From: Planctomycetota bacterium
Lineage (GTDB): Bacteria; Planctomycetota; PLA2
DNA length: 64,000 nucleotides
Assembly: GCA_021776735.1 (NCBI GenBank)
Contig: JAJFFH010000042.1
Span: 8,767 to 72,766, forward strand
Direction: 5' to 3'
The translations under genes and the position numbers were made by a program. Positions 3,819 to 59,788 of the stretch are shown one piece after another. The first letter of the stretch is position 1. The number at the start of each line of letters is the position of its first letter. The notes under the pieces are model-generated. The model had not been told where the DNA came from. It did not search any database and saw only the letters and a list, made by a program, of their open reading frames with translations.

Positions 3819-6800
3819 TCAGCGCGGTCGCGCGGGCAGCTTCACCTCGATCGGCGCGCCCGGTTTCAGGTCGTGCAGGTAGCGCTGATAGGCAAAGGTC
3901 GCGTCGACTTTGAGCTCGGCGTAGATCTGATGGAGCACCGTCGGGCGCCCCAGCAGGACAAACCAACCCTCCGTGTTGGACTTCGTCTCCGCGAGCTTGT
4001 CGCCGGTCTTGGTGCGCAGCACGATGCGAACCCCCGGCGCCACGCGTCCGTCTGCAAACCGCACTACGCCGGCGAACTCCGCGCCTTTCTCGAGCCGTAG
4101 CGTGACCATGCCCCGACCGGGCCTCGCCTCGACGGGCGCCGGCCCCACGAGCCCTGCGGAGCCGCCGGTCACCCTGATGCGGAAGCGCCGGCGCGCCAAC
4201 CGCTCGAAGCGGACCTTCCCGTCGCGGCCGGTCGTGCCACGCTGCGCCTGCGGATCGGGCCGGGGAAACCGAAGCGTGTTGTGCGCCTCGACCCGCACGC
4301 CGGCGACCGGCTTGCCCGCGGGATCGACCACGCGCACCGTCAGCGTACGGTCGCGCGGCATCGCGCCGGTCCGCACGGTGATGCCGCTTGCCGGCGCGCG
4401 CACGCCGGGCGCCGCGCCGTAGACGGCGAGCGTTTCGGTGGACGGATGCGGGCGAGTGCCGTCGATCGCGATGTCCACGGTTTCGCCGCTCCGGAGCGAC
4501 AGCGCGAACCGACCCTGCCCGTCGGTCGTCGCGCGTGCACGCGGCCGGCCGGTCGCGGGGTCGTAGCCGACGACGAGCACCGCGCCGAGCGGCTCGCCAT
4601 TCGGCCCGAGCACGCGTCCCTGCACCCTGACCGCCTTCTCCAGAACAATCGTGATTTCTTCTTCCGACGGCACGACACGCTTTTCATGCCCGGCGAAGTG
4701 CGGCGTCCGACCCGGGTAGACGTCGATGTCGTAGGGCCGATACTCGAGCCCGTTCACGATCGCGTGGCCCGAAGGGTCGGTCTCGGCGTGATGGCGCTGC
4801 GCCACGCGCACGTGTGCACCCGCGACCGCATCGCCGTCCGTATCCACGACTCGGACTCGAAGCATGGCCGCAACAGGCACGTCCACCTCGAATCCGGAAA
4901 CCGCGCCATCGATCTCGACGTTGTGGCGCACGGCGGGGCGCCCGAACGGATGGACGGCAAGTTCGTACGAACCCGGTCCCAGATCGACGAACCGGAACCG
5001 GCCCAGGTCGTCGGTCCGCCGTCGCTCGATCGTCCCGTAGAACGCTCCTAGATGGTGCGCCTCGAGCAATCGCAGTTCTAGGCGCACGCGCGCCCGCGGC
5101 ACGGAAGCCCCCGTAACGCGCCCAGCCAGCGACGACGGCACCGGTAGACGGATGTCGCCCACCATCACGCGCCCGGCCCGTTCGGGATGCGGCGAAAAAT
5201 CGACCAGCTTGCGCCCGTGCCCCGCCGCTTGCACGACGAGCGTGTGCGCCAGATCGCGCCGAAGGCTCGTCAACACGAACAGGCCACGCGCGTCCGTCCG
5301 GGCATGCCGCGAATCGATGTGCTGCATGACGTCGTCATGCCGGCTCGCCATCGCGACGACCCGCGCCCCGGCCAGGGGACGACCGCCCGCGTCCAGCACC
5401 CGTCCGCTGCACTCGTCGCCTTCGTGCAACAGGAAATCGATCGCGGCCCGCGCGCCCGCATGCTTCTGCGCGGTCCCGAACCCGTCCGCGAACGCGAACA
5501 GGATCGGCGCGCGCGTCCGCAACTCGTAGTGCCCCGACGCATCCGTCAACACCGAGCGCCTGAGTTCCCAACCCTCGCCGACCCGCGCGCCGACGATCAG
5601 ACGACCGTTCGCACCGCGCACAAACCCGGTCACGAGCCGTCCGGCAAGCGGCCGCAGTTCCACACGCCCCGGCACATGCGCTGTCGCGGTCGCGATCCCG
5701 CCAAGGGGATGCCGCGCCGTGACCGTCACGGGACCGACCGGCAGCTGCAAGACCGCGCGTCCGGTCTTGTCCGCATGTGCCTGCACCGAAGCATGGGGAA
5801 GCAAACGGACGGCGATGTCCGCGCCCTGGACGGTCTGTACGACGAGTTCGCCCGCCGCACGGCGCAAGACGATCCGCACGCGCTCGCCCGCCTGACAGGG
5901 CTGCGCGACTTCGGCGGGATAACCGTCCGCCGCAACCCGCAGCGTCGCGCGCGCACCCCGGGACAACCGCAGCCGGAACCGCCCCACCGAGTCCGTCACG
6001 CTGTGCGGGCCGGCCTCGGGAGCGCCGCCGTGTAGGAGCGCCGCGCGGCTGAACGGCAAGGTCGTAGACACGCGCGCGCCGACGATCGGCTGACCATCGC
6101 CGTCCACAACCACACCGAACAGGTCACGCTCACGATCGGGCGCAGGCGACGCCGTAGTCGCGCCATCGACGCGCTTCTCCGGTGTCGTGTTCACGGGATC
6201 GGCTCCGTTGTCGGACGCGGTCCGCTCGGCCGTACGCTCCTGTCGCTCCGCAGGCTTGTCGCCGTCTTTCCACAACCACAGCGCCCCCACCGCGAGCACC
6301 CCCGCCGCGACGAGCGCAACACGCAGCGACATCGCGGACAAGAACACGGGCCACGGACGCGGGCGAACAGCAAGCGGCAAGAGCGCAAGCTGCCAGCGCG
6401 CGCGGTCGCCATGGGTGGCGTCGAGCCGCTCGCGCAGCATCCCCAGGGCCTTTTGCACACGCGAACGCACGGTGGACGCGGGCACCCCCTGCCGCTTGGC
6501 AATCTCGGCCGCAGAGCAGTCCTCCAAAAAACGCAGGAACACGGTCTCGCGGTACGGCTCCGGCAGCTCGCGCACGGCGCGGGCGACGGATTCCTGGATC
6601 TCGAGCCGCTCCGCGACCTCGTCCGGGCGCGCCGGGCCAGCCGAACCGGCCAAAGACATCGCCGTCCGTTCCTGACGTACGCGTCGTCGCCCCTCCGAGC
6701 GCCACTGCATCTTCACGAGATTGCGCAGCGTGCCGGCGAGATAGCCTCGCAGCGAGGTGCGCGGCGGCGGCGCCCGCAACGCGGCCACCATGGCGTCCTG

Positions 6801-6902
6801 CGCAAGGTCGTCGGCCAAATGCGGGTCGGCCACAAGACGCCGCGCAAGACCGCGCAGAAACCGCCCATGAGCCACGAGTTCGTCGGTACTTCTGTGTGTC
6901 AC
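3819..6902 (-). CDS. ECF sigma-70 domain fused to TM helix and periplasmic carboxypeptidase-regulatory-like repeat array (ECF fusion paralog 1)
   Basis: The N-terminal ~190 aa carry sigma2 (DLAQDAMVAAL) and sigma4 (ETVFLRFLEDCSAAEIAKRQGVPASTVRSRVQKAL) motifs. A TM helix LRVALVAAGVLAVGALWLW follows, then repeated GRVxDxxGxPxAGARV beta-sandwich units. Confidence 0.8.
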   Translation of the reverse strand: MTHRSTDELVAHGRFLRGLARRLVADPHLADDLAQDAMVAALRAPPPRTSLRGYLAGTLRNLVKMQWRSEGRRRVRQERTAMSLAGSAGPARPDEVAERLEIQESVARAVRELPEPYRETVFLRFLEDCSAAEIAKRQGVPASTVRSRVQKALGMLRERLDATHGDRARWQLALLPLAVRPRPWPVFLSAMSLRVALVAAGVLAVGALWLWKDGDKPAERQERTAERTASDNGADPVNTTPEKRVDGATTASPAPDRERDLFGVVVDGDGQPIVGARVSTTLPFSRAALLHGGAPEAGPHSVTDSVGRFRLRLSRGARATLRVAADGYPAEVAQPCQAGERVRIVLRRAAGELVVQTVQGADIAVRLLPHASVQAHADKTGRAVLQLPVGPVTVTARHPLGGIATATAHVPGRVELRPLAGRLVTGFVRGANGRLIVGARVGEGWELRRSVLTDASGHYELRTRAPILFAFADGFGTAQKHAGARAAIDFLLHEGDECSGRVLDAGGRPLAGARVVAMASRHDDVMQHIDSRHARTDARGLFVLTSLRRDLAHTLVVQAAGHGRKLVDFSPHPERAGRVMVGDIRLPVPSSLAGRVTGASVPRARVRLELRLLEAHHLGAFYGTIERRRTDDLGRFRFVDLGPGSYELAVHPFGRPAVRHNVEIDGAVSGFEVDVPVAAMLRVRVVDTDGDAVAGAHVRVAQRHHAETDPSGHAIVNGLEYRPYDIDVYPGRTPHFAGHEKRVVPSEEEITIVLEKAVRVQGRVLGPNGEPLGAVLVVGYDPATGRPRARATTDGQGRFALSLRSGETVDIAIDGTRPHPSTETLAVYGAAPGVRAPASGITVRTGAMPRDRTLTVRVVDPAGKPVAGVRVEAHNTLRFPRPDPQAQRGTTGRDGKVRFERLARRRFRIRVTGGSAGLVGPAPVEARPGRGMVTLRLEKGAEFAGVVRFADGRVAPGVRIVLRTKTGDKLAETKSNTEGWFVLLGRPTVLHQIYAELKVDATFAYQRYLHDLKPGAPIEVKLPARPR

Positions 6903-7005
6903 GCCAAGGAGTTGCCGCCGCCGCCCGAAGTGTCCATGATTATTCTGGATTGTCCTGCCGATCCGTTCAGCCGTGGTGACCCGGGCACTTCGCGCCCCGG
7001 CCCCC

Positions 7006-8520
7006 CTACTTCAACTGCTTGAGGGCTTGGGCGCAGCGCTTGCCGCTGCGGTGTTCCGGGGACTTTTTGACCACCGCTTCGTGCAGCGCGATGGCCTGCG
7101 CGCGGCGTTGCGGGTTCTTGTCCGCGAGCACCGTCTTCAGCGACCGTGCGTACAGGTCGTTGGACGCGTAGACCGTCAGGCAAAACGCCAGCGCGCGGTA
7201 GTACGGATCAAACCACGACTCGTCCTTGACCAGCCCGACGAGGTTGTCGAAAAGGCGCGGATTGTCGGTCGTCTCCAGGGTCTCGCGCGTCCACTTCTTC
7301 CAGCGCTCCTTGAAGTACGTTGTCGCGACTTGACTTGCGGGGCGCACATGGCCGGCGACATTCTCGCCGTACAACTTGGCGATCCACTCAAACAACTCGT
7401 CCTCGGGCGGGTGGCCGCGCCTGTAGGCGAGCTGATACATCCGCAGCGCCAGGGCCGGTTCCCTGAGCTTGCGCAGCCGGCGGGCCGCGGCGAGAGGAAC
7501 GGACGGCGATGTTGCGTAGCGGCGCGCGACCTTGTGGCAGTTCTCGAAAGGCTTGTCCGACTCGGCGGCTTCCTCGGCCTCGAGCTCCGGCACGCGCTTG
7601 CGCAACGGCTCCAGGAACGAACGGCGCTTCATCTCTGTGCGCAGCCACGCCAGCGCCTCGCGGCCGCTCTTTTGACGCAGCCCCTCGAGCCGACGGTCCG
7701 CGGCCTCCAGCGCGAACGCGCGCAGGCCCTTGTGTCCCGGTTCCTCGGCGAGCCCGCCGGCCGCGATGTCGAGTGCGCTCGCCGGATCAGATGCCGCCCG
7801 CGCTTCGTCCAGAGCGGTCTCGCCCGCGCTCGGCCGCAGTCCGAAAAACAGCGCGGCTCCGACAGCCGCCACGATGACGACCGCGGCGATCGCAATCACA
7901 GCGCGTCGGTTTCCCCCGGCGTCCACCCGATCCCGAAACCCGGTGATGACCGGCCCGCGCGGCGTGAGGCGCACGCCCGCGCGCACCCGCTGGCGCAGCG
8001 GACTGTTGTCGGGCTGCACGACGGAGAACACCTTCACGGGATACGGAATACCCTTGAACGTGTGCTCCCCGGCCGAGGCGGCGGGCGCCTCCTTGCGGTT
8101 CATCGTGAGATACACGGCTTCGGTGAAATAGACCTCACCGGGCTCGGCGATGGCCTCGAGCCGCGCCGCGATGTTGACCGGCTCGCCGAGGATGTCACCG
8201 TCGAGAAGCTCCACATCGCCGGAGTTGATCGCCACCCGAACGTGCAACCGTTCCTGCTCCGCGACCGTGCCGTTGTGCTGGCGCAGCACTTCCTGCACGG
8301 CGACCCCGCACATCACGGCGTTGGTCGAACTGTCGAAGCGGACCAGGAACGCGTCCCCGATCTCCTTGACGACCGTCCCCCCGAAGTGCCGAAAGACCGG
8401 CTGCAGCAGGTGCGCGTGCTGTTCCAGCAGGGTATTCAGATCGTCCCGACTCGAATCCGAGACCCGGGCCGTGAAGCCCTGGATGTCGGTGAACATGATC
8501 GTGAGATGCCGCGTCGCCAC
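7006..8520 (-). CDS. class III adenylate/guanylate cyclase with TM segment and C-terminal helical domain
   Basis: IMFTDIQGFTA...GDAFLVRF...EPVNIAARLE catalytic motifs. Confidence 0.85.
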   Translation of the reverse strand: MATRHLTIMFTDIQGFTARVSDSSRDDLNTLLEQHAHLLQPVFRHFGGTVVKEIGDAFLVRFDSSTNAVMCGVAVQEVLRQHNGTVAEQERLHVRVAINSGDVELLDGDILGEPVNIAARLEAIAEPGEVYFTEAVYLTMNRKEAPAASAGEHTFKGIPYPVKVFSVVQPDNSPLRQRVRAGVRLTPRGPVITGFRDRVDAGGNRRAVIAIAAVVIVAAVGAALFFGLRPSAGETALDEARAASDPASALDIAAGGLAEEPGHKGLRAFALEAADRRLEGLRQKSGREALAWLRTEMKRRSFLEPLRKRVPELEAEEAAESDKPFENCHKVARRYATSPSVPLAAARRLRKLREPALALRMYQLAYRRGHPPEDELFEWIAKLYGENVAGHVRPASQVATTYFKERWKKWTRETLETTDNPRLFDNLVGLVKDESWFDPYYRALAFCLTVYASNDLYARSLKTVLADKNPQRRAQAIALHEAVVKKSPEHRSGKRCAQALKQLK

Positions 8521-8602: not shown

Positions 8603-9148
8603 CTATCGCCAATCGACGAGGTCGATCATCACCGCGTTCTTTGGACAATAGCGCTCGCCGTCCAGATAGCCGTCGAGATCGTCTTCCACGTCGGATGGCA
8701 GGCCATCGCACGGGCCCACGGCGTCGTCGGCAGCAATGATCGCGAAGTCCTCGTTGTCGAGATGCCAGGTCCACGGTCCGTTGTGGTCGTCCTGCCCACC
8801 GCCTTCCACGACGAATCCGTCGGGGATGCCATCGGTCACGCCGTCCCAGAGATCCAGCAGTTCGTCGATGCCGTCTTCGTCCGTCACCCAGACGCTGAAC
8901 AACTCGCCCTCGACGTCGAACGTCGCGACGACGCCGCCCTCAAGATAGATCGGACCCGGGAAGGGACCCGGCACCGGTACGGGTACGGGCACCGGAACGG
9001 GAACGGGGACGGGTGCCGGCCCCGGACCGCCGCCACCACCGTCAACCGGTATGACGACCTCGTCGTTCGAGCCGGTCGGCAGCGTCGTCTTGCCGGAGCC
9101 GCACGCGACCAGACCGAGAGCCAAAGCGATCGCAGCCAAGCAGCGCAT
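8603..9148 (-). CDS. lipoprotein with PV-repeat linker
   Basis: Internal start MRCLAAIALALGLVACGS (lipobox LVAC); PVPVPVPVPVPVPG repeat; acidic C-terminus. The longer 288-aa ORF has an R-rich N-terminal extension judged spurious. Confidence 0.55.
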   Translation of the reverse strand: MRCLAAIALALGLVACGSGKTTLPTGSNDEVVIPVDGGGGGPGPAPVPVPVPVPVPVPVPGPFPGPIYLEGGVVATFDVEGELFSVWVTDEDGIDELLDLWDGVTDGIPDGFVVEGGGQDDHNGPWTWHLDNEDFAIIAADDAVGPCDGLPSDVEDDLDGYLDGERYCPKNAVMIDLVDWR

Positions 9149-9426: not shown

Positions 9427-10521
9427 ATGCGGTTTGTTGTTTTGGTCTTGGCTTTGGTCGCGTTCGCACCGGTTGTCGCGGCGCAAAGTCTCACGCCGGG
9501 CGCGGACGTACCCACGCTCGAGATCGAGAAGTGGGTCAAGGGCGACGCGTTCAAGTTCGAGAAGGGCAAGGTCTACGTCGTCGAGTTCTGGGCGACGTGG
9601 TGCGGGCCGTGCATCGCGAGCATGCCGCACCTGAGCGAGCTGCAGGAGCACTACGGCGATGTCACGTTCGTCGGGGTCACGAAAGAGGATCCGAACAACA
9701 GCCTCGCCGCCGTCGAGGAGATGGTCAGGGACAAGGGGCCCGGGATGGGCTACACCGTCGCCTGGGACGCGGCGGGCAAGACGTACGACAACTTCATGAC
9801 CGCGTCGGGGTCGCGCGGCATTCCAACGTCGTTCATCGTCGACCAGAACTCAAAGATCGCGTACATCGGGCATCCGATGGGACTCGACATTCCGCTCAAG
9901 ATGGTCGTCGCCGGCAAATGGGATCCGGCCAAGGCGCAGGAAATCATGGCGCCGATCAACGAGCGCATCCGCGACGCCGTCATGAAGGGCCGCGAGGATC
10001 CGCAGGCGGGCGTCGCGGCGATCGACGCGATCGTGAAGGACACCCCCGAGCTGGCGAACATGCTCGATCAGTTCAAGAATGCATTCCTGCTCAAGGCCAA
10101 GATGTGGGACGCGTACGATGCCCACGCCAAGAAGGCCGTCGCCAAGGCGATCAAGTACCGCAACCCGCAGACGCTCAACCAGGTTGCCTGGACAATCGTC
10201 GATCCGGCCGGCGAGATCGAGAAAAAGAACCTCGATCTGGCGCTGCGCGCCGCCCAAAAGGGCGTGGAGTTCACGCACGAAAAGGACGCCGCGATCCTCG
10301 ACACACTCGCGCGCGTGTGGTTCTTGAAGGCCAAGTTCGACAAGGCGGTCAAGCTCCAGGAGCAGGCCGTCGCGCTCCAGGTCGAAACGCTCAACAAAGC
10401 CAAGAAGAGCGGCGGCGCCAAGGCCGCCGAGCAACACCTCGGGTTGTTGATGGACCTCAAGAAAACGCTCGCCGAGTTCAAGGCGAAGGCCGGCGCGGGC
10501 GATGCCAAGAAGGTCGGCTAG
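9427..10521 (+). CDS. TlpA/ResA-family periplasmic thiol:disulfide oxidoreductase with C-terminal helical extension
   Basis: Signal peptide, WATWCGPC active site, GGAGG RBS 8 nt upstream. Confidence 0.85.
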   Translation: MRFVVLVLALVAFAPVVAAQSLTPGADVPTLEIEKWVKGDAFKFEKGKVYVVEFWATWCGPCIASMPHLSELQEHYGDVTFVGVTKEDPNNSLAAVEEMVRDKGPGMGYTVAWDAAGKTYDNFMTASGSRGIPTSFIVDQNSKIAYIGHPMGLDIPLKMVVAGKWDPAKAQEIMAPINERIRDAVMKGREDPQAGVAAIDAIVKDTPELANMLDQFKNAFLLKAKMWDAYDAHAKKAVAKAIKYRNPQTLNQVAWTIVDPAGEIEKKNLDLALRAAQKGVEFTHEKDAAILDTLARVWFLKAKFDKAVKLQEQAVALQVETLNKAKKSGGAKAAEQHLGLLMDLKKTLAEFKAKAGAGDAKKVG

Positions 10522-10593: not shown

Positions 10594-11676
10594 TCAACGC
10601 ATCAGGGCGGCGCGGGTCTTTTTGTCGTACACCTTCGGGAACGAGCGCTTGTCGCCGATCGCGCGGTGGATTCGCTTGGCCAGGCCGACGCAGGCGCGGT
10701 GCATTCGGTCGCCCGCCGGAACCGGTTGCGGATAGCCGCGCTTGAGCAAGGTGCGGACCCGCTTGCCTGCTTTCTTGTGGCGCTTTGCGATGGCGGCCAG
10801 GGCATCGACCGAGATGCCGGTCAGGCCGTTACGGATCGCGCCGCTGGTGGCATGCGGTGCGATCACGTCGATCGAACGCGCGTCGCCGCACGTGGCCAGC
10901 GCCTGCACCGCACGGATGCGCAGCACGTTCGGGTTCAGGCTGTTTTTTGGTTCGTGCACGAGGCTTTCAAGCGCTTCGCGCGCCTCGGGCCGCCCGAGTT
11001 TTCCAAGCAGTGCACACACGCGGTAGCGAAACGGGTCGTTCGGGGTCGCCAGGAGCGCACCCGCCCGCTCCGCGACGAGTCCGGGTTTTTTGTCGGTCAA
11101 GACCCCGAGCGCCACGTAACGCACGACGATGTCTTGGTCCTCGAGCCCCGCGCGCGCGAGCTTGACCGACTTCTTGGTTTCGATCGCGTCCGCCCGTTTC
11201 TCCGCTGCCGCCGCATCCTTGAGCACCGCGCGCGAGCGCGTCTTGGCAACCCGCGTGGCGCGGACCGCCGCCAGAAACGACGCCGTCTTGCGTCCCGTGT
11301 GCCGCAGAATCCGCAGCGTCGCCGGATCGGCCAGAAAAAGCTGCGGCCAGCTCGACACCCCGAACCGCCAATGCGTCCGGGTCGCCGCGCGGTCGGCGCC
11401 GGTGCCGCTGAAATCGGTGTAGACGTAGAGCCAGACCGCCTTGTCGTAGACCGCCCTGAGCTCCGGATTCGGAAGCAACTGCTTCTCGACGATGACGCAG
11501 TGCGGTCAGTAGGTCTTGGTGAAGTACATAAAAAGCGGCAGGCCCTTTTCGAGCGCCTGTGCCCGCGCCCGAGCCAGATCGCGCACCCAGGGCGGACCGA
11601 CGGGCGGCGTCTCGCTCTTGCCCGCCCAGGCGGACGTCCCCAGCACCAACAAGATAGGCAACGCACGCATTCGCAT
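10594..11676 (-). CDS. candidate selenoprotein: secreted thioredoxin-fold (Thioredoxin_7/DUF255-like) domain with UPHC redox motif fused to HEAT-repeat domain; in-frame TGA at 11506-11508
   Basis: Translation from ATG 11676: signal peptide MRMRALPILLVLGTSAWAG, then ...GLPLFMYFTKTY-[TGA]-PHCVIVEKQLLPNPELRAVYDKAVWLYVYTD, continuous in frame with the 294-aa ORF. The TGA sits exactly at the first Cys of a CxxC motif. A 5-bp hairpin (GAAGC AGTT GCTTC) lies ~20 nt downstream. Confidence 0.55.
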
Positions 11677-15367: not shown

Positions 15368-15857
15368 GCCGACATTTTAGCTGGGCGGACGAGGAGAAGT
15401 TCTTGCCACCGAGATCATAGAGGTCGCAGAGATGAGAGACGATCACGATTACTTCTTGGCCCGAGTCCCGTCCTACCTGAAAAGCACAGGGCTAGAGCGT
15501 GACATAGCCATCAACGTTGGTAGTCGGCGATTGGTGAATGGCATTCAGCGAGTCTCTCTGTGATCTCGGTGTCCTCTGTGGCTGAGACCCGGTTCCCGGC
15601 GCGGCCGCCCAACAAGCCGATGCAGCGGACGGCCCTTCGGGCCGCCGCTGATCAGCAAGGCGATCTACATTACTGTCATCCGAACCCGAACCGACGGTCA
15701 TGTCGCCTCCGAGTCACCGAGAACTCCCGGCGTTTCTGGGTGTCGCACACGATTTCCGCTCGCAACCTGGGTGCGCCGACCTGGCAGCGGCGGCGCGGCA
15801 GGACGGATTCCGCATCTGGTACTCTCACGATGTGGTGCGAATGTGGATGGTTCGCCG

Positions 15858-16877
15858 ATGAGCGCCCGAGTCGGCGTGTTCGGGGCCGGCTACTGGGGTG
15901 CGATCGCGGAGGCGGCGGCACGTTGGCTGCCGGACGACCTGTCCATCGACCGCGTCTGGTCGCGCCGCGGGGAGCGCGCCGACGCGCTGGCATCGCGGAT
16001 CGGATGCCGTGTCGCCCGTTCGCTCGATGACGTCGCGGATCTGGACGTGGCCGTCGCGGGCGTTCCGCCCACCGCGATCACTCCGGTGACCGAGGCGTGT
16101 CTCGAGCACGGCGTGCGCTGTATCTTGGAAAAACCCGTGTCGCTCGACCCGGCGCGGATTCGCCAGTGGGCGGCGTGGTTCGACGCTGCAGACCTGTCCA
16201 CCGCCGTCCACCTTCAGGGACGGTTCGTCCCGGCCATGCATGCCGTGCGCACAGCGGTCGCATCGGGGCGGTATGGACGCCTCCTCGAAGTAGACGTCAC
16301 GGCCCTGGGCAACCGCGGCTGCGACGCCTCGAAGGACCCGCACTCCTGGATCCACCGGGTCGAAGACGGGGGTGGCATCGCCGGGATCTCGGGGCCGCAT
16401 GCGGCCGAGTTCCTGCTCGCGCTCGCCGGAAACGGCGAAGCCGTGTTCTCGCGATCCTGGACGGAGGTGGCGAGCCGGCCCGATCGCGATGGCATCATGC
16501 AAGCGTGCACGGCCGACGACAACGTGGAGGTCCTGACGGCGCACGACAATGGCGTCCGCGGGCGTCTGCGGCTGGGCACGACGGCACGCAGGAAGGAAGA
16601 GACGTGGTCCGCGCGCTGCGAGGAGGGCACGCTGCGGATCGGTGCGGACGATCGCGCCGTGATCGTCGAGAACTTCGGAAAGACGACCCCACTGCCGTCG
16701 GACCGACACGACGTGCTGGCGAGCGTCGGCCTCGCCGACCACCCCGGGCTGTGCGAGTGCCCCGACGGCGTCTTTCCTGCGCTGGTATTGCTCACCGTGT
16801 TTGTGCGTAGCGAGGCGCCGCTGCCCGATCTCCCGCTCATGGCGAAGTGCATGGACCTGTTGTCCGCCCGCGCGTGA
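15858..16877 (+). CDS. Gfo/Idh/MocA family oxidoreductase
   Basis: VGVFGAGYWG Rossmann motif, EKP motif. Confidence 0.75.
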   Translation: MSARVGVFGAGYWGAIAEAAARWLPDDLSIDRVWSRRGERADALASRIGCRVARSLDDVADLDVAVAGVPPTAITPVTEACLEHGVRCILEKPVSLDPARIRQWAAWFDAADLSTAVHLQGRFVPAMHAVRTAVASGRYGRLLEVDVTALGNRGCDASKDPHSWIHRVEDGGGIAGISGPHAAEFLLALAGNGEAVFSRSWTEVASRPDRDGIMQACTADDNVEVLTAHDNGVRGRLRLGTTARRKEETWSARCEEGTLRIGADDRAVIVENFGKTTPLPSDRHDVLASVGLADHPGLCECPDGVFPALVLLTVFVRSEAPLPDLPLMAKCMDLLSARA

Positions 16878-16898
16878 CAAGCGGGGAATCGATACAGC

Positions 16899-18104
16899 GT
16901 GACCAAGGACTTTCGGCGCTTCTGGGCATCGCAGACGATTTCCGTGATCGGCACCCAGGTGCGCGAGATCGCGCTGCCGCTGGCCGCGATCACGCTGCTA
17001 CACGCGAGCGCGGCCCAGATGGGCTGGCTCGTTGCCATGCGGCACCTCCCCATGGCGGTGCTCGGACTCGCCGCGGGCGTGTGGGTCGATCGGCTGCGGC
17101 GCCGGCCGATCATGGTCGTCGCGGACCTCTCGCGCGCGCTGCTGGTCGGCTCGGTTCCCGTCGCGTTCCTCGTGTTCGATCGCCTCTCGATGATGCACCT
17201 CTATGCGGTGGCCCTGGGAACCGGCGCGTTCAAGGTCGTGTACGCCGTGGCCGACCGCGCCTACCTGCCGACGCTGCTCCCGCGCGATCAGCTCGTCGCC
17301 GCAAACAGCCGCATCTTTTTCAGTTTCTCGTTCGCGCGGACGGTCGGACCGGGTCTCGGTGGGCTGTTGGTCAAGCTCGCCACGGCGCCGCTGGCGCTGC
17401 TGATCGACGCGTTCTCGTTTCTGCTCTCGGGCGTGCTACTGCTGTTCATCCGCAAGGCAGAAGCGCCGCCGCGGTCGAAGACATCGGTCCCCATGGTGGC
17501 CGGAATCCGCGAAGGCCTCGGCCGCGTATGGCGCGACCCACTGCTGCGGCCACTCGTCCTGTGCGGCGGCACCCACAACATCTGCAGCACGGCGATCGTC
17601 GCACTCTATTTCTTGTACCTGTCCCGGTACCTCGGGTTTTCGGCAGCCGTGCTCGGCACCGTACTGCTGGTCGGCGGGGCCGGCGCGATCCTGGGATCGA
17701 TGGTGGCGGGCCGCCTGGCGCGGCGTCGCGGCATCGGTCCGACCCTGATCGTCGCCCAGGTGTTCAGCGGCATCGCGCGGCTGCTGGTCCCGCTCGCCGC
17801 CGGCCCCTCCCCCTGGGCGCTGGTCGTCCTGGCCGTTTCGGAACTCATGCTCGGCACGATGCGCGCGATCTTCAACATCACGCAGATCAGCCTGCGCCAG
17901 GCGATCACGGCCGACGCGTGGCAGGGCCGGGTCAACGGCACGATCGGATTTCTGCTGTGGGTGCTCACGCCGCTCGGAGCACTCGCCGGCGGCTACCTCG
18001 GTGACGCGTTCGGTCTGCGCCCGACGCTCTTCGGCGCAGCCCTCGGCGTGACCGCTTCCACTCTTTGGATGTGGCGATCGCCCTTGCGCACATACCGCGG
18101 CTGA
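16899..18104 (+). CDS. MFS transporter
   Basis: 12 predicted TM helices; FRRFWASQTISVIG N-terminus typical of MFS_3/enterobactin-exporter-like family. Confidence 0.85.
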   Translation: MTKDFRRFWASQTISVIGTQVREIALPLAAITLLHASAAQMGWLVAMRHLPMAVLGLAAGVWVDRLRRRPIMVVADLSRALLVGSVPVAFLVFDRLSMMHLYAVALGTGAFKVVYAVADRAYLPTLLPRDQLVAANSRIFFSFSFARTVGPGLGGLLVKLATAPLALLIDAFSFLLSGVLLLFIRKAEAPPRSKTSVPMVAGIREGLGRVWRDPLLRPLVLCGGTHNICSTAIVALYFLYLSRYLGFSAAVLGTVLLVGGAGAILGSMVAGRLARRRGIGPTLIVAQVFSGIARLLVPLAAGPSPWALVVLAVSELMLGTMRAIFNITQISLRQAITADAWQGRVNGTIGFLLWVLTPLGALAGGYLGDAFGLRPTLFGAALGVTASTLWMWRSPLRTYRG

Positions 18105-19888: not shown

Positions 19889-20452
19889 ATGGACGGACAG
19901 CACTGGCTTGACGACGTGCGCAGACGGTACGACCGCTACCGGCGCCGGACCGAAAACGCTTCGGAGCAGGTGAACGACGAACAGTTCTTCGCGGTCCCGG
20001 GCGGCAACCCGAACAGCATCGCGGTCTTGATGAAACACGTCGGCGGCAACCTGCACGCGCGCTGGCGCGACTTCCTGACCACGGACGGCGAGAAGCGGGA
20101 CCGCAACCGCGACGCGGAGTTCATCGTCGATGGCGAAACACGGGCGTCGGTGCTCGGGCACTGGCAGCGCGGATGGGACACGGCGCTTGCGGAGCTCGAA
20201 CAGCTCGGGCCCGACGACCTCGAGCGAACGGTGACGGTGCGCGGGCAACCGCTCTCGGTTGTCGAAGCCATCCACCGCAACCTCGACCATGTCGTCTATC
20301 ACACGGGCCAGGTTGTCTGCCTGGCGCGCGGGTTCGCGGGCAACGATTGGCAAACGCAAAGCATCGCCCGGGGAGCCTCGGACGCACACAACGCGATGAT
20401 GCAGGAGCGCCACGGCGACTGGTGGTCCCCGCGCCCAGGCTCAGGCGTCTGA
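19889..20452 (+). CDS. DinB_2/DUF1572 family protein
   Basis: HVGGNLHARW...HRNLDHVVYHTGQ histidine triad. Confidence 0.7.
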   Translation: MDGQHWLDDVRRRYDRYRRRTENASEQVNDEQFFAVPGGNPNSIAVLMKHVGGNLHARWRDFLTTDGEKRDRNRDAEFIVDGETRASVLGHWQRGWDTALAELEQLGPDDLERTVTVRGQPLSVVEAIHRNLDHVVYHTGQVVCLARGFAGNDWQTQSIARGASDAHNAMMQERHGDWWSPRPGSGV

Positions 20453-23092
20453 CAGCGACCAGCGCCCGGCGCGCTCGATGCGTCCGAGCGCGAGTTGAGC
20501 CAGCGCGGTCTGGCAGCGCGCGCTCGGACCGGCCGGATCATGGTCCAGCAGGGCACGCGAGAGACTCGCGGTCTTGCTCGAGCCGCGAACCGCGTCCAAC
20601 ACGCCGCGGGCGGACTGGCCGACCGGGCAGGCGAGACCGATCAGGAGCTCGCGCAACAGTCCAAGTACATGCAGCGTGCCGCGGGGAAGCCCGGGCCCCG
20701 GGTCCAGATTCGCCAAGGAATCCTCGATGGTGTTCGCGACCACGAGTTCGTGCAACGGGGATGCCGCGGCGATTTCTTCCAGCGCCTTGGCAAGCCGACC
20801 GGGCTTGAGCCAGCCGTGCGGCGCAAGGCGTGCGAGCATGCGACCAAACGGTTCGGGGTGGCAGCGCCCGTCGTCGACGGCGTCCAGGAACACATCGATG
20901 GCGACGCCTTTCGCGTCCGCGTCGCGACCGGTCAGGGACAGGCACGCGACCAGCCACGCGAGGTCGCCCCAGTCGCGATCCGACGGTGCGATCAGATCCA
21001 CGCAGGCGTGCGTCGGCTCCATCGACGACGCCGTGTGATTGCGCCTTCCGGCGATGTTCTTGGCGCCGTGCGCGAGAACGTCGTCCAAGTCGGCAGGTTG
21101 CGCGCTGGCGATCCAGCCCAGCGCCCACGGCATGTGCGGGTACAGGGTGCGCCGCTTCTCGATGCTCATCCGCACCCAGCGGTAGATCTCGTCGCGAAAG
21201 CGGGACGTGCCCGGCTTGAGATGCCACGCACGAGTTCCGCTCCCGCCTCGCGTGTCGTCTTTCGCGAGCGCCTCGCGCAGAGCCTCGCCGCCCGGACCGT
21301 CGAGCTTCGCTGCCACGGCACGCGCCGCGGTCCACCCGTCTGGTGCCAAGCGAAGCAGCGCCTGCTTGAAGTCGGCCGATTCCGGGTCGCCGTCGCTTTC
21401 ACGCAGACGTTCCACCAAAACAGCGGCGTCGATCCAGCCCCCGGCATGGGTCGGAGCCGCCAAGAGCGGGCGAGGCTGACGGCGCTGAACCCAACCGATC
21501 ATCTCGCCCATTCGTTCTCCCAGCAACGGGACCGCCCAGCCCCAATCCGCCTCGAAGTCGATCTCCGGCGCCAGCCACGCTCTCAGCACGGCAGCGATTG
21601 CGGACATCCCCTCCGTGGTCAAGAGCCCACGCCCGGTCTCGGATGTCTTGATCGTCAGGATGCGCTTTCGCAGCGGCGCCGTTTTCGTCTCGAAGTCGGC
21701 CGGCCGCGCAGCGCAGAAACGACAGATGCCGTCGAGGACCCGTTCGACCTCGTCGGCGTTCGAGACCGTCTCTACAGCTTGCGCGGTGGTCTCGATCAGC
21801 TCGTCGAGTGTTGTGATCGGTTCGACCGGCGCGATTCCGGTCAACAACGGGACTTCGAGGGTGCGAAACGACAGGGGCGGCGGGAACGGCCCGCCTGCGA
21901 GCGCGCGGAGCGATGCATCGACGCCGGCGAACTCACGCCATCGCGGCGCGAGTGCGAGCGCGCGCGTCGCCAGCTCGGCAGAGTCCGGCGCGGCGGACTC
22001 CGGAGCGGAAGGCGCGGGATCAACGCGAAGCGAAGCGGGCATATCGGTGGCGTGTTCTTCGAGCCAGGCGGTATCGGCCAAGTCGGACGTCGCCCGGCAG
22101 ATCGTGACGGCGAGTCCCTGCACGTCGCGGTGTTCGTGCTTGAGTGCTGCCGCCAGCGCAGGACGCGCGACCGCGGCCAGATCCGGCTCCCGCTTCAGAG
22201 CACGCCGGAGGAGCGAGAGCGCGGCCACGCACGTTCCCTTGGTTTGCTGGAAAAACAACCGCGGCGCTGCTCGCAGAAACGCCTGCATGTCGAGCCGCCC
22301 CGTGCGTTCGAGCTTGCGCACCTCTCGCATCGCAAACGCCATCACCCGCGGCGTGCGGACAGCGAGCAGATCGAGATAGACATCATGGCGCGCGTCGATC
22401 TCGGCTGGCGTCGGCTTGAGCTGCTCGTGCAAGTCGGCGTAGCCCGAGAGAGTCGTCACCTTGAACCCGGACGACAACCCGCGCAGACAACCGTCGAGCA
22501 GCCGCTGCCGGTCGATTCGATCCTCGGCCGCGAGGTCCACCAGCGCCGGGACCCAGCCGTAGTGGGTAAACGCCTGCGTATCGACCTCGAAGAACCGCCA
22601 GACCTCGTCGATCCATTCTGGATACGCCCACATACGCCGTTGGATGCGCCTCTCGGTATCCTTCCGACGCCAACCGGGTCCGTGAATGAGCGCAAAGTAG
22701 TGGACAAACGCCTCCGATCGCGGTCGCGGACACGCCCCTTCGCGAACAAGCGTGTCCACGACCTCCCAGGAGAGACCGACAATATCTCGGTAGAACTTCC
22801 CCTCCAACCACGCGGGCAGCCAGCGGGGGCGGCGGTCGCTGAGAATCCGGGCGGCATGGACTGCGAAGTCGTCGCGCACCCACATGGCGGCTGCGTCTTT
22901 TGCAGTGCCGCAGGCAAGCAACGCCAGCGCCGGCAGGTCCCGGGATTCGAGCCAGGCAGCCGACGCCGGTCGGAGTGCGCGCACGCGCGGCCGCAACGCT
23001 CGGCGCTCCGACTCGGTGAGCGACGCGACCTCTTTCGCCAGCGCCGCCCCGTCCCCTGTGCGGATCAGTTCCTCTAGGCGATCCGGCGTCAC
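20441..23092 (-). CDS. large helical hypothetical protein of the type paired with SWIM zinc-finger proteins (DUF6493-like)
   Basis: 883 aa, W/Y-rich balanced composition; ATGA overlap with the upstream SWIM gene; the plus-strand 860-aa ORF is an antisense artefact. Confidence 0.55.
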   Translation of the reverse strand: MTPDRLEELIRTGDGAALAKEVASLTESERRALRPRVRALRPASAAWLESRDLPALALLACGTAKDAAAMWVRDDFAVHAARILSDRRPRWLPAWLEGKFYRDIVGLSWEVVDTLVREGACPRPRSEAFVHYFALIHGPGWRRKDTERRIQRRMWAYPEWIDEVWRFFEVDTQAFTHYGWVPALVDLAAEDRIDRQRLLDGCLRGLSSGFKVTTLSGYADLHEQLKPTPAEIDARHDVYLDLLAVRTPRVMAFAMREVRKLERTGRLDMQAFLRAAPRLFFQQTKGTCVAALSLLRRALKREPDLAAVARPALAAALKHEHRDVQGLAVTICRATSDLADTAWLEEHATDMPASLRVDPAPSAPESAAPDSAELATRALALAPRWREFAGVDASLRALAGGPFPPPLSFRTLEVPLLTGIAPVEPITTLDELIETTAQAVETVSNADEVERVLDGICRFCAARPADFETKTAPLRKRILTIKTSETGRGLLTTEGMSAIAAVLRAWLAPEIDFEADWGWAVPLLGERMGEMIGWVQRRQPRPLLAAPTHAGGWIDAAVLVERLRESDGDPESADFKQALLRLAPDGWTAARAVAAKLDGPGGEALREALAKDDTRGGSGTRAWHLKPGTSRFRDEIYRWVRMSIEKRRTLYPHMPWALGWIASAQPADLDDVLAHGAKNIAGRRNHTASSMEPTHACVDLIAPSDRDWGDLAWLVACLSLTGRDADAKGVAIDVFLDAVDDGRCHPEPFGRMLARLAPHGWLKPGRLAKALEEIAAASPLHELVVANTIEDSLANLDPGPGLPRGTLHVLGLLRELLIGLACPVGQSARGVLDAVRGSSKTASLSRALLDHDPAGPSARCQTALAQLALGRIERAGRWSLSDA

Positions 23093-24438
23093 GGTGTTTC
23101 AGGAGACTCGGGGGCCTCGGCAGACTCGGCAAAAAGACGCGCGGCGAGAACGTGCTTGCACGGACCGCGCTGTCCGCGGTACTTCGAAAACCAGGGACAG
23201 GTGCAGCGGTCCTGTCCGTCGCGGAGGCGCACGACATGCAAAACACCGGTGCCGCCGACGCCGAACACGGCCTGGCCCTCCGTGCTTTCATCGAGGCGAG
23301 ACACGCGATCCTGCTCGAGGAGCCGCCGCGCATTGCGCAGCCGGGGCTGGAGGAGTTCGACCCGGTCCAGATCGAACGGCAACTCGCGGTGGAAGTATGC
23401 GGCCGCCGCAACGTCGTAGCCGACCAGCCCCCGCGCCCCCAAAGCCGCCAGCGCGGCTGCAACGTCGTGCCCGCCGCGACCCACCGAACGCGCGAGCGCA
23501 TCCGCATCGACGCGGGCCTGCCACCGCAAGAGTCCCTGCACGCTCGCCACCAGCGGCTCTCCCCCAGCGCCGGCCAGATCGTGAAGCAACCCGCCCTCGC
23601 CGGAAAAGCCGCGGTAGACGCCGGGGCTCAGCAACAGAAAAAAACACCCACACCCGACGTCGAGCTGCCACGCGCTCGTGCCGTGCGCATCGTCCGCCCA
23701 CACCCGCAGAGAACGCGCCGAGGCAAGCAGAGGCTCGAGCAGACGCAGGCGATGGACCCCCTCGACGCGCACACGCCCGGCGCCGTCCCGTCGTGAAAAG
23801 CGCGGCCCGGTCCCGGTCGTCAACACGGGCAGTTTCGCGGTCCCGGTGCGCGGAAGCGAACGCAGCAGCGCGCGCGCCGCAAACCCCGCGAACTCCGCAT
23901 GAGGCCGCAACCGCTGCTGACACGCCTGCACCTCGCCGAACCCGGACAGCCAGCGCGCGGGTAACTTCACTTTCTTCTCGACATGAACCTCGCCACCATG
24001 GTCCAGCTCAACGGAGTCGGGCCCCACGGCAAGCCGGCACGGCTCGTCCTCGCGCACTCGCGTCAGCGCCGCGCGCATGGGATCGTTGAAATCGACATTG
24101 GTCGTGCCACGGCCGAGGATGCGGGCCGAAAACGAATCCGCGGGCAGGTCGATTCGCGCGTAGACCCCGGCACAACTGCTGAACGCCTCGAAACGCAGGA
24201 GTTCTTCGCTGGCCGTCACGACGGGATCGAATAGGTCGGGGTCGGGAATCCGAAAGTCGCTGCGCACAACATCGGTCAGCGCCAACAAGAGATCGCAGAC
24301 CGCCCGAGGCTCGTGCAACAACCCGTCGAAGAACCGCGGGTGCTTGAGCCGCGCGTCGCACGTGGCCAACCGAACGGCCGCCGCCCCCTCCCGCCGCTCG
24401 ACGAGCGAAGCAAACGGATAGCGGTAACAAAACTCCAT
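23089..24438 (-). CDS. SWIM zinc-finger family protein
   Basis: C-terminal CTCPWFSKYRGQRGPCKHV (CxCxnCxH); start placed at MEFCYRYPFASL, as the upstream 180 aa are R-rich. Confidence 0.65.
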   Translation of the reverse strand: MEFCYRYPFASLVERREGAAAVRLATCDARLKHPRFFDGLLHEPRAVCDLLLALTDVVRSDFRIPDPDLFDPVVTASEELLRFEAFSSCAGVYARIDLPADSFSARILGRGTTNVDFNDPMRAALTRVREDEPCRLAVGPDSVELDHGGEVHVEKKVKLPARWLSGFGEVQACQQRLRPHAEFAGFAARALLRSLPRTGTAKLPVLTTGTGPRFSRRDGAGRVRVEGVHRLRLLEPLLASARSLRVWADDAHGTSAWQLDVGCGCFFLLLSPGVYRGFSGEGGLLHDLAGAGGEPLVASVQGLLRWQARVDADALARSVGRGGHDVAAALAALGARGLVGYDVAAAAYFHRELPFDLDRVELLQPRLRNARRLLEQDRVSRLDESTEGQAVFGVGGTGVLHVVRLRDGQDRCTCPWFSKYRGQRGPCKHVLAARLFAESAEAPESPETP

Positions 24439-59627: not shown

Positions 59628-59788
59628 GAGTGTCTCCGAGCAAGACTGCCGCACGACACGGCTGGCTGCTCACGTAGATAAGCCCGCGAACGGCATCGAG
59701 ACTGCACGAAAGACACCGCCGACCGTGTCGGGGTCTCTGATAGCGACAGAGTCGATCGGCTAGAAGGACGGGAGGAGGCTGAAAACTC

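What the first reader, a model, noticed from the sequence alone, without database searches (positions are those of the whole stretch)
10594..11676. Second candidate secreted selenoprotein: thioredoxin-fold domain with Y-U-P-H-C motif fused to HEAT repeats
The ORF track shows only a 294-aa HEAT-repeat ORF starting at a TTG. Extending upstream through an in-frame TGA at 11506-11508 adds a signal peptide and the N-terminal half of a thioredoxin fold: KGLPLFMYFTKTY-[TGA]-PHC-VIVEKQLLPNPELRAVYDKAVWLYVYTD. The stop sits exactly where the first Cys of a CPHC (DsbA-like) motif is expected. Two independent cases of TGA at the first Cys of a CxxC in one window, with no listed precedent I can recall for this architecture, argue for real selenocysteine use and against pseudogenes. 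It is convergent with a conventional TlpA-like thioredoxin at 9427..10521.
Basis: partly seen in the sequence, partly recalled or inferred. Interest (0 to 1): 0.7.

Follow-up and report, generated by a model that had tools for sequence, protein, structure and literature searches.

The report
Overlooked secreted selenoprotein: thioredoxin fold plus HEAT repeats
A gene annotated as a short "HEAT repeat protein" very likely encodes a longer secreted redox protein whose active-site cysteine is replaced by selenocysteine, read from a UGA "stop" codon with the help of a conserved RNA hairpin. The same gene is cut short in the same way in dozens of Planctomycetota genomes.

Summary
The minus-strand frame 11676..10594 is one 360-codon gene interrupted only by TGA at 11508..11506, in the context FTKTY-U-PHC.

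- **Domains:** with Cys in place of U, the protein passes Pfam Thioredoxin_7 and HEAT_2.
- **Cys homologs:** full-length homologs carry TKTY-C-PHC at exactly this site.
- **Other genomes:** 42 of 47 related Planctomycetota loci carry TGA there and 5 carry TGT. All have a conserved signal peptide and N-terminal thioredoxin half upstream, in frame.
- **Hairpin:** it lies at nt 20-40 after the U of UGA (11489..11469), with tetraloop AGUU. It meets all four published bacterial SECIS criteria and shows compensatory changes (G-C/C-G 26/10; A-U/G-C/C-G 24/11/2). It is absent from the Cys forms.
- **Annotation:** database entries are about 295-aa truncations that start just after the TGA.

It is most likely a periplasmic selenol/thiol oxidoreductase. 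The thioredoxin module resembles DsbH and DsbD-gamma, and the HEAT solenoid is probably a docking surface.

No NCBIfam model and no entry in a 2026 selenoprotein inventory covers this architecture, so it looks like a new family of a well-known kind.

Two things are untested: the Sec machinery of this genome, which is not in the window, and selenium incorporation itself. The second in-window candidate (TGA at 59477) has no homologs and stays unconfirmed.

The parts
10594..11676 (-). Full coding sequence of the Trx7-HEAT selenoprotein: 360 codons including Sec57. The true stop is TGA at 10596..10594.
   Evidence: Searches give the translation. One search gives the Pfam matches: Thioredoxin_7 at 37.3 bits (cut-off 27) and HEAT_2 at 44.5 bits (cut-off 27.7). 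Searches show full-length Cys homologs of 367-402 aa that are colinear over the whole length.
11623..11676 (-). Predicted Sec-type signal peptide, MRMRALPILLVLGTSAWA, with cleavage before GKSETPP (residues 1-18).
   Evidence: Read directly from the sequence: n-region, hydrophobic core, then AxA. Every locus with enough upstream DNA has an equivalent hydrophobic leader followed by GSETPPxGPPW. No signal-peptide predictor was available.
11506..11508 (-). In-frame UGA, codon 57, proposed to encode selenocysteine.
   Evidence: It aligns with Cys of TKTY-C-PHC in all full-length homologs. 42 of 47 related loci have TGA here and 5 have TGT.
11497..11508 (-). Redox motif U-P-H-C (residues 57-60), at the start of helix alpha-1 of the thioredoxin fold.
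   Evidence: Alignment. The AF2 model of Cys homolog P0002 places C63-P-H-C66 at the strand-1/helix-1 junction (E54-60, H64-74).
11469..11489 (-). SECIS hairpin. The lower stem is nt 20-22 pairing with 38-40, A23 is bulged, the upper stem is nt 24-28 pairing with 33-37, and the apical loop AGUU is at 11480..11477. Numbering starts at the U of UGA.
   Evidence: The hairpin folds at -9.3 kcal/mol, z = -3.3. Across 37 distinct Sec-form sequences 95.3% of cells are paired. Pair 21-39 is GC 26 / CG 10 / 1 broken, and pair 25-36 is AU 24 / GC 11 / CG 2. The covariation score is 0.290 against 0.118 in shuffles (0 of 500 reach it) and at most 0.10 in slid controls. RNAalifold finds the same helix on its own. 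Mean energy is -10.0 kcal/mol in Sec forms against -3.2 in Cys forms.
11257..11589 (-). Thioredoxin-fold domain, about residues 30-140, Thioredoxin_7 type. The invariant cis-Pro candidate is P111 (11346..11344) in the motif SSWPQ.
10597..11229 (-). C-terminal HEAT-like (PBS-lyase type) alpha-solenoid, about residues 150-360. Invariant polar motifs are PND-x-FR (D214, R217), C221, S-x-NPNVLR (N248-N250, R253) and NGLT (N283, T286).
11476..11478 (-). TTG taken by gene callers as the start of the truncated 294-aa 'HEAT repeat' ORF. It lies inside the SECIS hairpin, spanning the last two loop bases and the first base of the 3' arm.
   Evidence: In the 36 truncated database homologs aligned, the first residue corresponds to query residues 61-76, the first ATG, GTG or TTG after the TGA.

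Best explanation
This is one gene for a secreted (periplasmic) selenoprotein.

**How the UGA is read.** Translation starts at ATG 11676. A signal peptide exports the protein. At codon 57 the UGA is decoded as selenocysteine rather than stop, because the mRNA forms a bacterial SECIS hairpin 16 nt downstream (loop AGUU, bulged A). That hairpin would recruit SelB carrying Sec-tRNA(Sec).

**What the protein does.** The product has an N-terminal thioredoxin-fold domain of the Thioredoxin_7 (DsbH/DsbD-gamma) type. Its redox motif is U-P-H-C, with Sec in the N-terminal, solvent-exposed nucleophile position, and the domain has a cis-Pro loop. It most likely cycles between a selenol/thiol form and a selenenylsulfide form, and so catalyses thiol-disulfide exchange on extracytoplasmic clients.

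The C-terminal HEAT solenoid is modelled confidently as one unit with the redox domain (pTM 0.89, which suggests but does not show a fixed arrangement). It most likely acts as the docking surface that selects the client or redox partner.

**What is shown and what is inferred.**
- Shown: gene continuity, Sec/Cys pairing, conservation of TGA across genomes, the covarying hairpin, and the domain folds.
- Inferred: actual selenium insertion, export, the direction of the redox reaction (reductase or isomerase versus oxidase), and the role of the HEAT domain.
For: 1. **Sec/Cys pair.** The U aligns with the first Cys of TKTYCPHC in all full-length homologs.
2. **TGA in other genomes.** There are 15 TGA against 3 TGT among 18 species-representative Planctomycetota MAGs. 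With metagenome contigs the count is 42 against 5.
3. **Upstream region is coding.** No in-frame stop occurs in 39 loci. Pairwise differences at codon positions 1/2/3 are 0.29/0.21/0.46 upstream, against 0.23/0.16/0.38 downstream. All loci carry a leader plus GSETPPxGPPW.
4. **SECIS.** The hairpin meets all four criteria quoted from PMC13188914:
   - a 4-nt loop;
   - a 5-bp upper stem;
   - G at loop position 2 followed by U;
   - 25 nt between the UGA and the loop, and -9.3 kcal/mol.

   Compensatory changes occur at two pairs, and RNAalifold predicts the same helix independently.
5. **RNA-level constraint.** The peptide E-x-Q-L-L, encoded by the hairpin, occurs in 21 of 23 distinct Sec forms but only 1 of 24 Cys forms. 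Hairpin energy is -10.0 against -3.2 kcal/mol.
6. **Interleaved forms.** Cys forms are interspersed among Sec forms in a neighbour-joining tree, as is usual for selenoprotein families.
7. **TGA is an ordinary stop here.** It ends 15 of 33 likely genes in the window and also ends this gene. The recoding is therefore local.
8. **Fold.** AF2 gives pLDDT 93.5 and pTM 0.89. The thioredoxin domain matches DsbH, DsbD-gamma, AGR and ERp19, and the solenoid matches alphaRep and CpcE/F.
9. **Lineage.** Some Planctomycetes have complete Sec machinery (PMC4807772).
Against: - No selA, selB, selD or tRNA-Sec was found in the window or in the 467 kb of related loci held. That is a tiny fraction of these genomes, so the result is uninformative, but the trait is unproven for this organism.
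- No Rfam SECIS family matches, even at E = 10.
- One Sec-form locus (L012) has a hairpin in the same place with loop AACU, which lacks the consensus G. One (L045) has an A-A mismatch in the lower stem.
- There is no conserved gene neighbourhood and no redox partner nearby, so the function rests on domain homology alone.
- There is no proteomic or 75Se evidence.
Confidence: 0.85

Rival explanations
1. Pseudogene or split gene. The TGA is a real stop, and the cell makes a 56-aa leftover peptide, a leaderless 294-aa HEAT protein started at TTG 11478, or both.
For: This is how gene callers and NCBI/JGI annotation treat it. TGA is the commonest ordinary stop in the window.
Against: - The same 'nonsense' codon is kept in 42 loci from diverged lineages (38-65% protein identity), with the upstream frame intact and under coding-type constraint.
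- The split would cut a thioredoxin fold at its active site.
- Start codons of the truncated ORFs are not conserved: they fall at residues 61, 63, 67 or 76.
- A covarying hairpin sits at the right distance from the TGA.
Confidence: 0.03
2. Read-through of UGA without selenium. The hairpin is a general read-through stimulator, and a near-cognate tRNA inserts Trp, Cys or Arg, giving a non-seleno full-length protein.
For: The Sec machinery was not demonstrated for this genome. Structured RNA after a stop codon can promote read-through in general (established knowledge).
Against: - The codon sits exactly at the catalytic Cys of a CxxC motif, and the only alternative seen in homologs is Cys. This is the signature of Sec/Cys exchange.
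- The hairpin's geometry and loop G-U match the SelB-type bacterial SECIS consensus.
- Planctomycetes with Sec machinery are documented.
Confidence: 0.06
3. Selenium-gated switch. The UGA acts mainly as a terminator, and the full-length protein is made only when selenium is abundant. On this view the element is primarily regulatory rather than catalytic.
For: Sec insertion in bacteria competes with release factor 2 and depends on selenium supply (established knowledge). The Cys forms show that the chemistry can be done without selenium.
Against: This is not exclusive of the main explanation. The persistence of U over C in about 90% of loci argues that Sec itself is advantageous at the active site. 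No regulatory partner or conserved operon was seen.
Confidence: 0.05
4. Sequencing or assembly error that turned TGT or TGC into TGA.
For: The window comes from a metagenome-type assembly. An identical contig exists in an independent Logan assembly of run SRR15505515.
Against: The same TGA occurs in 37 distinct sequences from many independent assemblies.
Confidence: 0.01

Closest known systems
Selenoprotein family 'thiol:disulfide interchange protein' / 'Trx-like 2' (PF13098, cd02953 DsbD-gamma-like; UxxC), from Kryukov and Gladyshev and the GOS survey. Listed in PMC13188914 and PMC2398784.
   Different: The protein here scores below the PF13098 cut-off (23.3 against 27 bits) and is better described by PF13899. 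It carries a roughly 210-residue HEAT solenoid that neither paper's entry for that family mentions. It has the DsbA-type dipeptide PH, and so far it appears only in Planctomycetota. A reference sequence of the known family was not available for direct comparison.
NF041199 Trx7/PDZ domain-containing (seleno)protein (NCBIfam; from the GOS survey)
   Same: Both are Thioredoxin_7-type redox domains with Sec, fused to a protein-interaction module. This shows there is precedent for Trx7 selenoproteins with a docking domain.
   Different: The score is 20.6 bits against a cut-off of 300, over the first 45 profile positions only. Sec is in the second position there (CxxU) and in the first here (UxxC). 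The partner domain is PDZ there and HEAT here.
DsbH (Chlamydia, PDB 2ju5) and the DsbD gamma domain (1vrs, 2fwf): periplasmic Cys-based reductases
   Different: They use Cys, not Sec. They have a different dipeptide and no HEAT domain. DsbD-gamma is part of a membrane electron-transfer protein.
DsbA (CPHC oxidase)
   Same: The active-site tetrapeptide is identical, C/U-P-H-C.
   Different: There is no DsbA helical insertion domain in the model, no PF01323 match at E <= 1, and DsbA is not among the top structural matches.
PBS-lyase-type HEAT proteins (CpcE/F bilin lyases, NblB, alphaRep scaffolds)
   Different: The match to NblB is only 21.7 bits against a cut-off of 300. No bilin-lyase function is implied. 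Fusion to a redox domain has no counterpart among solved structures: the best whole-query TM-score is 0.37.

Membership tests
Bacterial selenoprotein gene (Sec-UGA plus bSECIS) | In-frame UGA that aligns with Cys in homologs (Sec/Cys pair) | tested here: met
   all full-length homologs have TKTY-C-PHC at the U; 5 loci have TGT at the same codon.
Bacterial selenoprotein gene (Sec-UGA plus bSECIS) | TGA-containing orthologs in other organisms, with conserved flanks on both sides | tested here: met
   42 loci (37 distinct sequences); the upstream frame is open and conserved in 39 of 39 loci.
Bacterial selenoprotein gene (Sec-UGA plus bSECIS) | bSECIS consensus: 3-9 nt apical loop, 4-16 bp upper stem, G in the first two loop positions, 16-37 nt from the UGA to the loop, and MFE <= -7.5 kcal/mol (PMC13188914) | tested here: met
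   loop AGUU, a 5-bp upper stem plus 2-3 lower pairs, 25 nt spacing, and -9.3 kcal/mol. Covariation is seen at two pairs.
Bacterial selenoprotein gene (Sec-UGA plus bSECIS) | Genome encodes selA, selB, selC (tRNA-Sec) and selD | not testable with these tools
   Only 64 kb of this genome is available. None of these genes is in the window or in 467 kb of related loci. The literature shows the trait exists in some Planctomycetes.
Bacterial selenoprotein gene (Sec-UGA plus bSECIS) | Selenium actually incorporated (75Se labelling or MS) | not testable with these tools
   This needs an experiment.
Pfam PF13899 Thioredoxin_7 | Score above the gathering threshold | tested here: met
   37.3 bits against 27, over residues 30-92 (with U replaced by C).
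Pfam PF13646 HEAT_2 | Score above the gathering threshold | tested here: met
   44.5 bits against 27.7, in two stretches.
DsbA family (PF01323) | DsbA domain match and an alpha-helical insertion in the thioredoxin fold | tested here: not met
   no PF01323 hit at E <= 1; a compact fold with no insert. DsbA is not among the top matches. Only the CPHC motif is shared.
NF041199 Trx7/PDZ (seleno)protein | Score >= 300 bits, a PDZ domain, and a CxxU motif | tested here: not met
   20.6 bits. There is no PDZ hit. The motif is UxxC.
Selenoprotein 'thiol:disulfide interchange protein' (PF13098/cd02953, UxxC) | PF13098 or cd02953 match with a UxxC motif | tested here: inconclusive
   The UxxC motif is met. 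PF13098 scores 23.3 bits, below the cut-off of 27. The domain is structurally similar to DsbD-gamma. A reference sequence of the family was not available for comparison.

The most novel reading that the evidence does not exclude
The Sec-thioredoxin module and the HEAT solenoid together form a dedicated periplasmic selenoenzyme specific to Planctomycetota. On this reading it has one defined client or small-molecule substrate, bound on the invariant NPN / PND-x-FR / NGLT face, possibly using the conserved Cys221 as a relay. It would then be a new enzymatic activity rather than a general Dsb-type oxidoreductase.
Probability: 0.2. Interest if true: 0.65.

Novelty: new member of a known kind. Interest (0 to 1): 0.5.

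Why it matters
**Annotation.** About a hundred database clusters of this family exist, and most of the best-matching ones are stored as N-terminally truncated 'HEAT repeat domain-containing protein' entries. Those entries lack both the signal peptide and the catalytic half of the thioredoxin fold. Recognising the Sec codon corrects all of them.

**Selenium biology.** It adds a selenoprotein family, and a clean covarying SECIS, for Planctomycetota, a phylum that none of the selenoprotein surveys read here mentions.

**RNA constraint on protein sequence.** The family is a clear example of a SECIS constraining the protein: the E-x-Q-L-L-P motif is kept only in Sec forms.

**Biochemistry.** A Sec-containing U-P-H-C centre fixed to a HEAT docking platform is an unusual design for an extracytoplasmic redox catalyst. 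Its natural Cys variants provide ready-made controls.

Tried and rejected
- **Rfam:** there was no SECIS or other match at gathering threshold over the window, or at E <= 10 over 11380..11580.
- **Sec machinery:** ARAGORN on the window and 26 loci found no tRNA-Sec. tblastn with E. coli SelA, SelB and SelD against the window plus all loci (467 kb) found nothing. This is uninformative, because these are small parts of multi-megabase genomes. Pfam scans of 25 other window ORFs found no sel genes.
- **Gene neighbourhood:** tblastn of window neighbours against all loci, and all-against-all clustering of flanking ORFs, found no conserved partner. The convergent TlpA-like gene is specific to this genome.
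- **Structure prediction of the window protein:** Model coordinates cannot be read, so distances such as Cys221 to the active site could not be measured.
- **AlphaFold database fold search:** the library was not available.
- **Second in-window candidate (TGA 59477):** a homolog search returned only the protein itself, so it cannot serve as independent comparative support.
- **Literature:**
  - No paper in the library combines selenoprotein with HEAT repeat in a relevant way.
  - The 2026 inventory (PMC13188914) has no PF13899 or HEAT entry.
  - The deep-Sep and GOS papers do not mention such a family.
  - Deng et al. 2026 (groundwater MAGs) was not looked up.

Full report
**Observation.** On the minus strand an ATG at 11676 opens a frame of 360 codons that ends at TGA 10596..10594. 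Its only interruption is TGA at 11508..11506, in the context GLPLFMYFTKTY-*-PHCVIVEKQLLPNPELRAVYDKAVWLYVYTD. The mechanical ORF list shows a 294-aa ORF from TTG 11478 and a 56-aa ORF at 11506..11676. A public gene call on an identical contig splits the gene the same way.

**What the protein is.** With Cys in place of the stop, the protein passes the Pfam thresholds for Thioredoxin_7 (37.3 bits, residues 30-92) and HEAT_2 (44.5 bits). Thioredoxin_2 falls just below threshold. The first 18 residues, MRMRALPILLVLGTSAWA, read as a Sec-type signal peptide; this is by inspection, as no predictor was available.

**Homologs.**
- A search of 5.8 billion proteins returned 123 relatives. About one in eight are full-length (367-402 aa) and carry the Thioredoxin_7 domain. 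The rest are about 295 aa, cover only some 80% of the query, and are named 'HEAT repeat domain-containing protein' or 'hypothetical protein' where a source names them (one JGI entry carries an unrelated ABC-transporter name).
- In the alignment, every full-length homolog has TKTY-C-PHC where the window has TKTY-U-PHC.
- The 36 truncated entries aligned begin at positions equivalent to query residues 61, 63, 67 or 76. That is the first ATG, GTG or TTG after the stop, the classic footprint of an unrecognised selenoprotein.

**DNA of related loci.**
- Eighteen species-representative genomes, all Planctomycetota MAGs (Pirellulaceae, Planctomycetaceae, Fuerstiella and unclassified), encode the gene. 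Fifteen have TGA and three have TGT at the site.
- Adding 29 metagenome contigs gives 42 TGA against 5 TGT, with 37 distinct TGA-form sequences.
- Upstream of the TGA, the 30 in-frame codons contain no stop in any of 39 loci. Pairwise differences at codon positions 1/2/3 are 0.29/0.21/0.46, against 0.23/0.16/0.38 downstream.
- Every locus with enough sequence encodes a hydrophobic leader followed by GSETPPxGPPW.
- The region before the TGA is therefore translated, in the same frame as the region after it.

**The RNA element.** Numbering starts at the U of UGA.
- Nt 20-22 pair with 38-40, A23 is bulged, nt 24-28 pair with 33-37, and the loop is AGUU (window 11489..11469, loop 11480..11477).
- In the window it folds at -9.3 kcal/mol, z = -3.3.
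- Across the 37 distinct Sec-form sequences, 95.3% of cells are paired. Pair 21-39 is G-C in 26, C-G in 10 and broken in 1. Pair 25-36 is A-U in 24, G-C in 11 and C-G in 2, with none broken. Pair 26-35 alternates between A-U and G-U.
- The covariation score is 0.290, against 0.118 for column shuffles (0 of 500 reach it) and at most 0.10 for slid registers. RNAalifold predicts the same helix unaided.
- The published bacterial SECIS model asks for a 3-9 nt loop, a 4-16 bp upper stem, a G in the first two loop positions (usually followed by G or U), 16-37 nt between UGA and loop, and MFE <= -7.5 kcal/mol (PMC13188914). All are met: a 4-nt loop A-G-U-U, 5 bp, 25 nt, and -9.3 kcal/mol.

**Constraint on the protein from the RNA.**
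- The hairpin is absent from Cys forms, at -3.2 against -10.0 kcal/mol.
- The peptide it encodes, E-x-Q-L-L, is present in 21 of 23 distinct Sec forms but only 1 of 24 Cys forms. That peptide conservation therefore reflects an RNA constraint, not a protein one.
- Exceptions are L012 (a hairpin in the same place with loop AACU) and L045 (an A-A mismatch in the lower stem).
- No Rfam family matches. [quoted passage not shown]

**Not a reassigned codon, an error or a pseudogene.**
- TGA ends 15 of 33 likely genes in the window, and it ends this gene too.
- The TGA recurs in many independent assemblies.
- In a rough neighbour-joining tree, Cys forms are scattered among Sec forms, which suggests repeated Sec/Cys exchange.

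**Structure.**
- AlphaFold2 on the Cys homolog P0002 (55% identical), with a 50-sequence alignment, gives pLDDT 93.5 and pTM 0.89. The model is a thioredoxin fold (beta-alpha-beta-alpha-beta-beta-alpha) with CPHC at the N-terminus of helix 1, followed by a long helix and a HEAT solenoid.
- No solved structure covers both domains; the best query TM-score is 0.37.
- Invariant residues include the cis-Pro candidate P111 (SSWPQ). In the solenoid they are D214, R217, C221, N248-P249-N250, R253, N283 and T286.

**Mechanism (inferred).**
- The protein is exported, and Sec57 is the attacking nucleophile of a U-P-H-C centre.
- The centre cycles between a selenol/thiol form and a selenenylsulfide form.
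- The HEAT domain, modelled confidently together with the redox domain, selects the client or partner.
- General selenium chemistry (my own knowledge, not tested here) says Sec has a lower pKa and higher nucleophilicity than Cys, and that selenenylsulfides have lower redox potentials. This favours a fast reductase or isomerase over a DsbA-like oxidase, despite the CPHC-type motif.
- No conserved neighbours point to a partner. The convergent TlpA/ResA-like thioredoxin at 9427..10521 is specific to this genome.

**Comparison with known families.**
- NCBIfam release 20 has no model that claims the protein. The best selenoprotein model, NF041199 (Trx7/PDZ, CxxU), scores 20.6 bits against a cut-off of 300.
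- A 2026 inventory of prokaryotic selenoproteins lists no PF13899 or HEAT entry. Its nearest entry is the 'thiol:disulfide interchange protein' family (PF13098, UxxC), which is 'Trx-like 2', cd02953 in the GOS survey.
- The deep-Sep paper does not list the family either.
- It is not a DsbA: there is no PF01323 match and no helical insert.
- I file it as a new family, and a new domain architecture, within the very well-known class of thioredoxin-fold UxxC selenoproteins.
- A profile search of 1.84 billion cluster representatives finds 96 clusters at E <= 1e-30. By my reading of the table, most of the top hits that cover the start of the profile begin at protein residue 1 or 2, which is the truncated pattern.

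**Limits.**
- The Sec machinery could not be checked for this genome. No tRNA-Sec, selA, selB or selD is present in the window or in the 467 kb of related loci held, which says little. Literature shows that some Planctomycetes have the full set (PMC4807772).
- Selenium incorporation, export and activity are untested.
- The other in-window candidate (59669..57813, TGA 59477, W-U-GAC) has a good Thioredoxin_7 match and a hairpin 10 nt after the UGA.

**Verdict.** This is very likely a genuine selenoprotein gene with a well-supported SECIS, and it is systematically mis-annotated across Planctomycetota. The evidence is solid. Interest is moderate, because new thioredoxin-fold selenoprotein families are still being added regularly, although the HEAT fusion and the phylum are unusual.

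Noticed in passing
It has a signal peptide and a Thioredoxin_7 domain (45.5 bits) with the motif W-U-GAC, followed by about 480 residues with no Pfam match. A hairpin GCGCAAU-GGA-AUUGCGU starts 10 nt after the UGA. The homolog search returned only the protein itself (548-aa truncated form), so there is no comparative support.
   Followed up: partly
L014 9416..11050, L015 9356..11071; proteins P0140, P0155, P0169: The most divergent Cys-form clade (TKTF-C-PHCVIVESE...) may carry an extra N-terminal region of roughly 200-260 residues. The ORFs are 544-571 aa, and the cluster representatives of 535-580 aa match the family profile only from residue 216-263 onward.
   Followed up: no
protein P0045: One full-length homolog has C-P-A-S instead of C-P-H-C, so the second Cys is lost. 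It still keeps the E-K-Q-L-L-P peptide typical of Sec forms. It may be a recent Sec-to-Cys convert or a monothiol variant.
   Followed up: no
L012 10162..10205: This Sec-form locus has a hairpin at the same distance from the UGA but a different sequence (GG..CGGG-AACU-CCUG.CC). Its loop lacks the consensus G.
   Followed up: partly
window 9427..10521 (+): A conventional Cys thioredoxin (WATWCGPC; AhpC-TSA/Redoxin, TlpA/ResA-like) with a sub-threshold C-terminal TPR match lies convergent to the selenoprotein gene. It is not syntenic in any of the other loci.
   Followed up: yes
window 3819..7010 (-): One 1063-codon stop-to-stop frame combines sigma-70 regions 2 and 4 (residues 47-194) with five CarboxypepD_reg repeats and Ig-like domains. 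It may be an ECF sigma factor fused to, or directly followed in frame by, a large extracytoplasmic protein.
   Followed up: no
window 16875 (+): There is an in-frame TGA between a GFO/IDH/MocA oxidoreductase (15564..16877) and an MFS transporter (16878..18104). These are two adjacent genes that happen to share a frame. It is not a recoding candidate, because there is no Cys context.
   Followed up: partly
window 20441..23098 (-) and 8603..9100 (-): A large protein of unknown function (DUF6493/DUF7824/DUF7825) and a small BP74_N-domain protein lie near the finding. Neither has an evident link to it.
   Followed up: no
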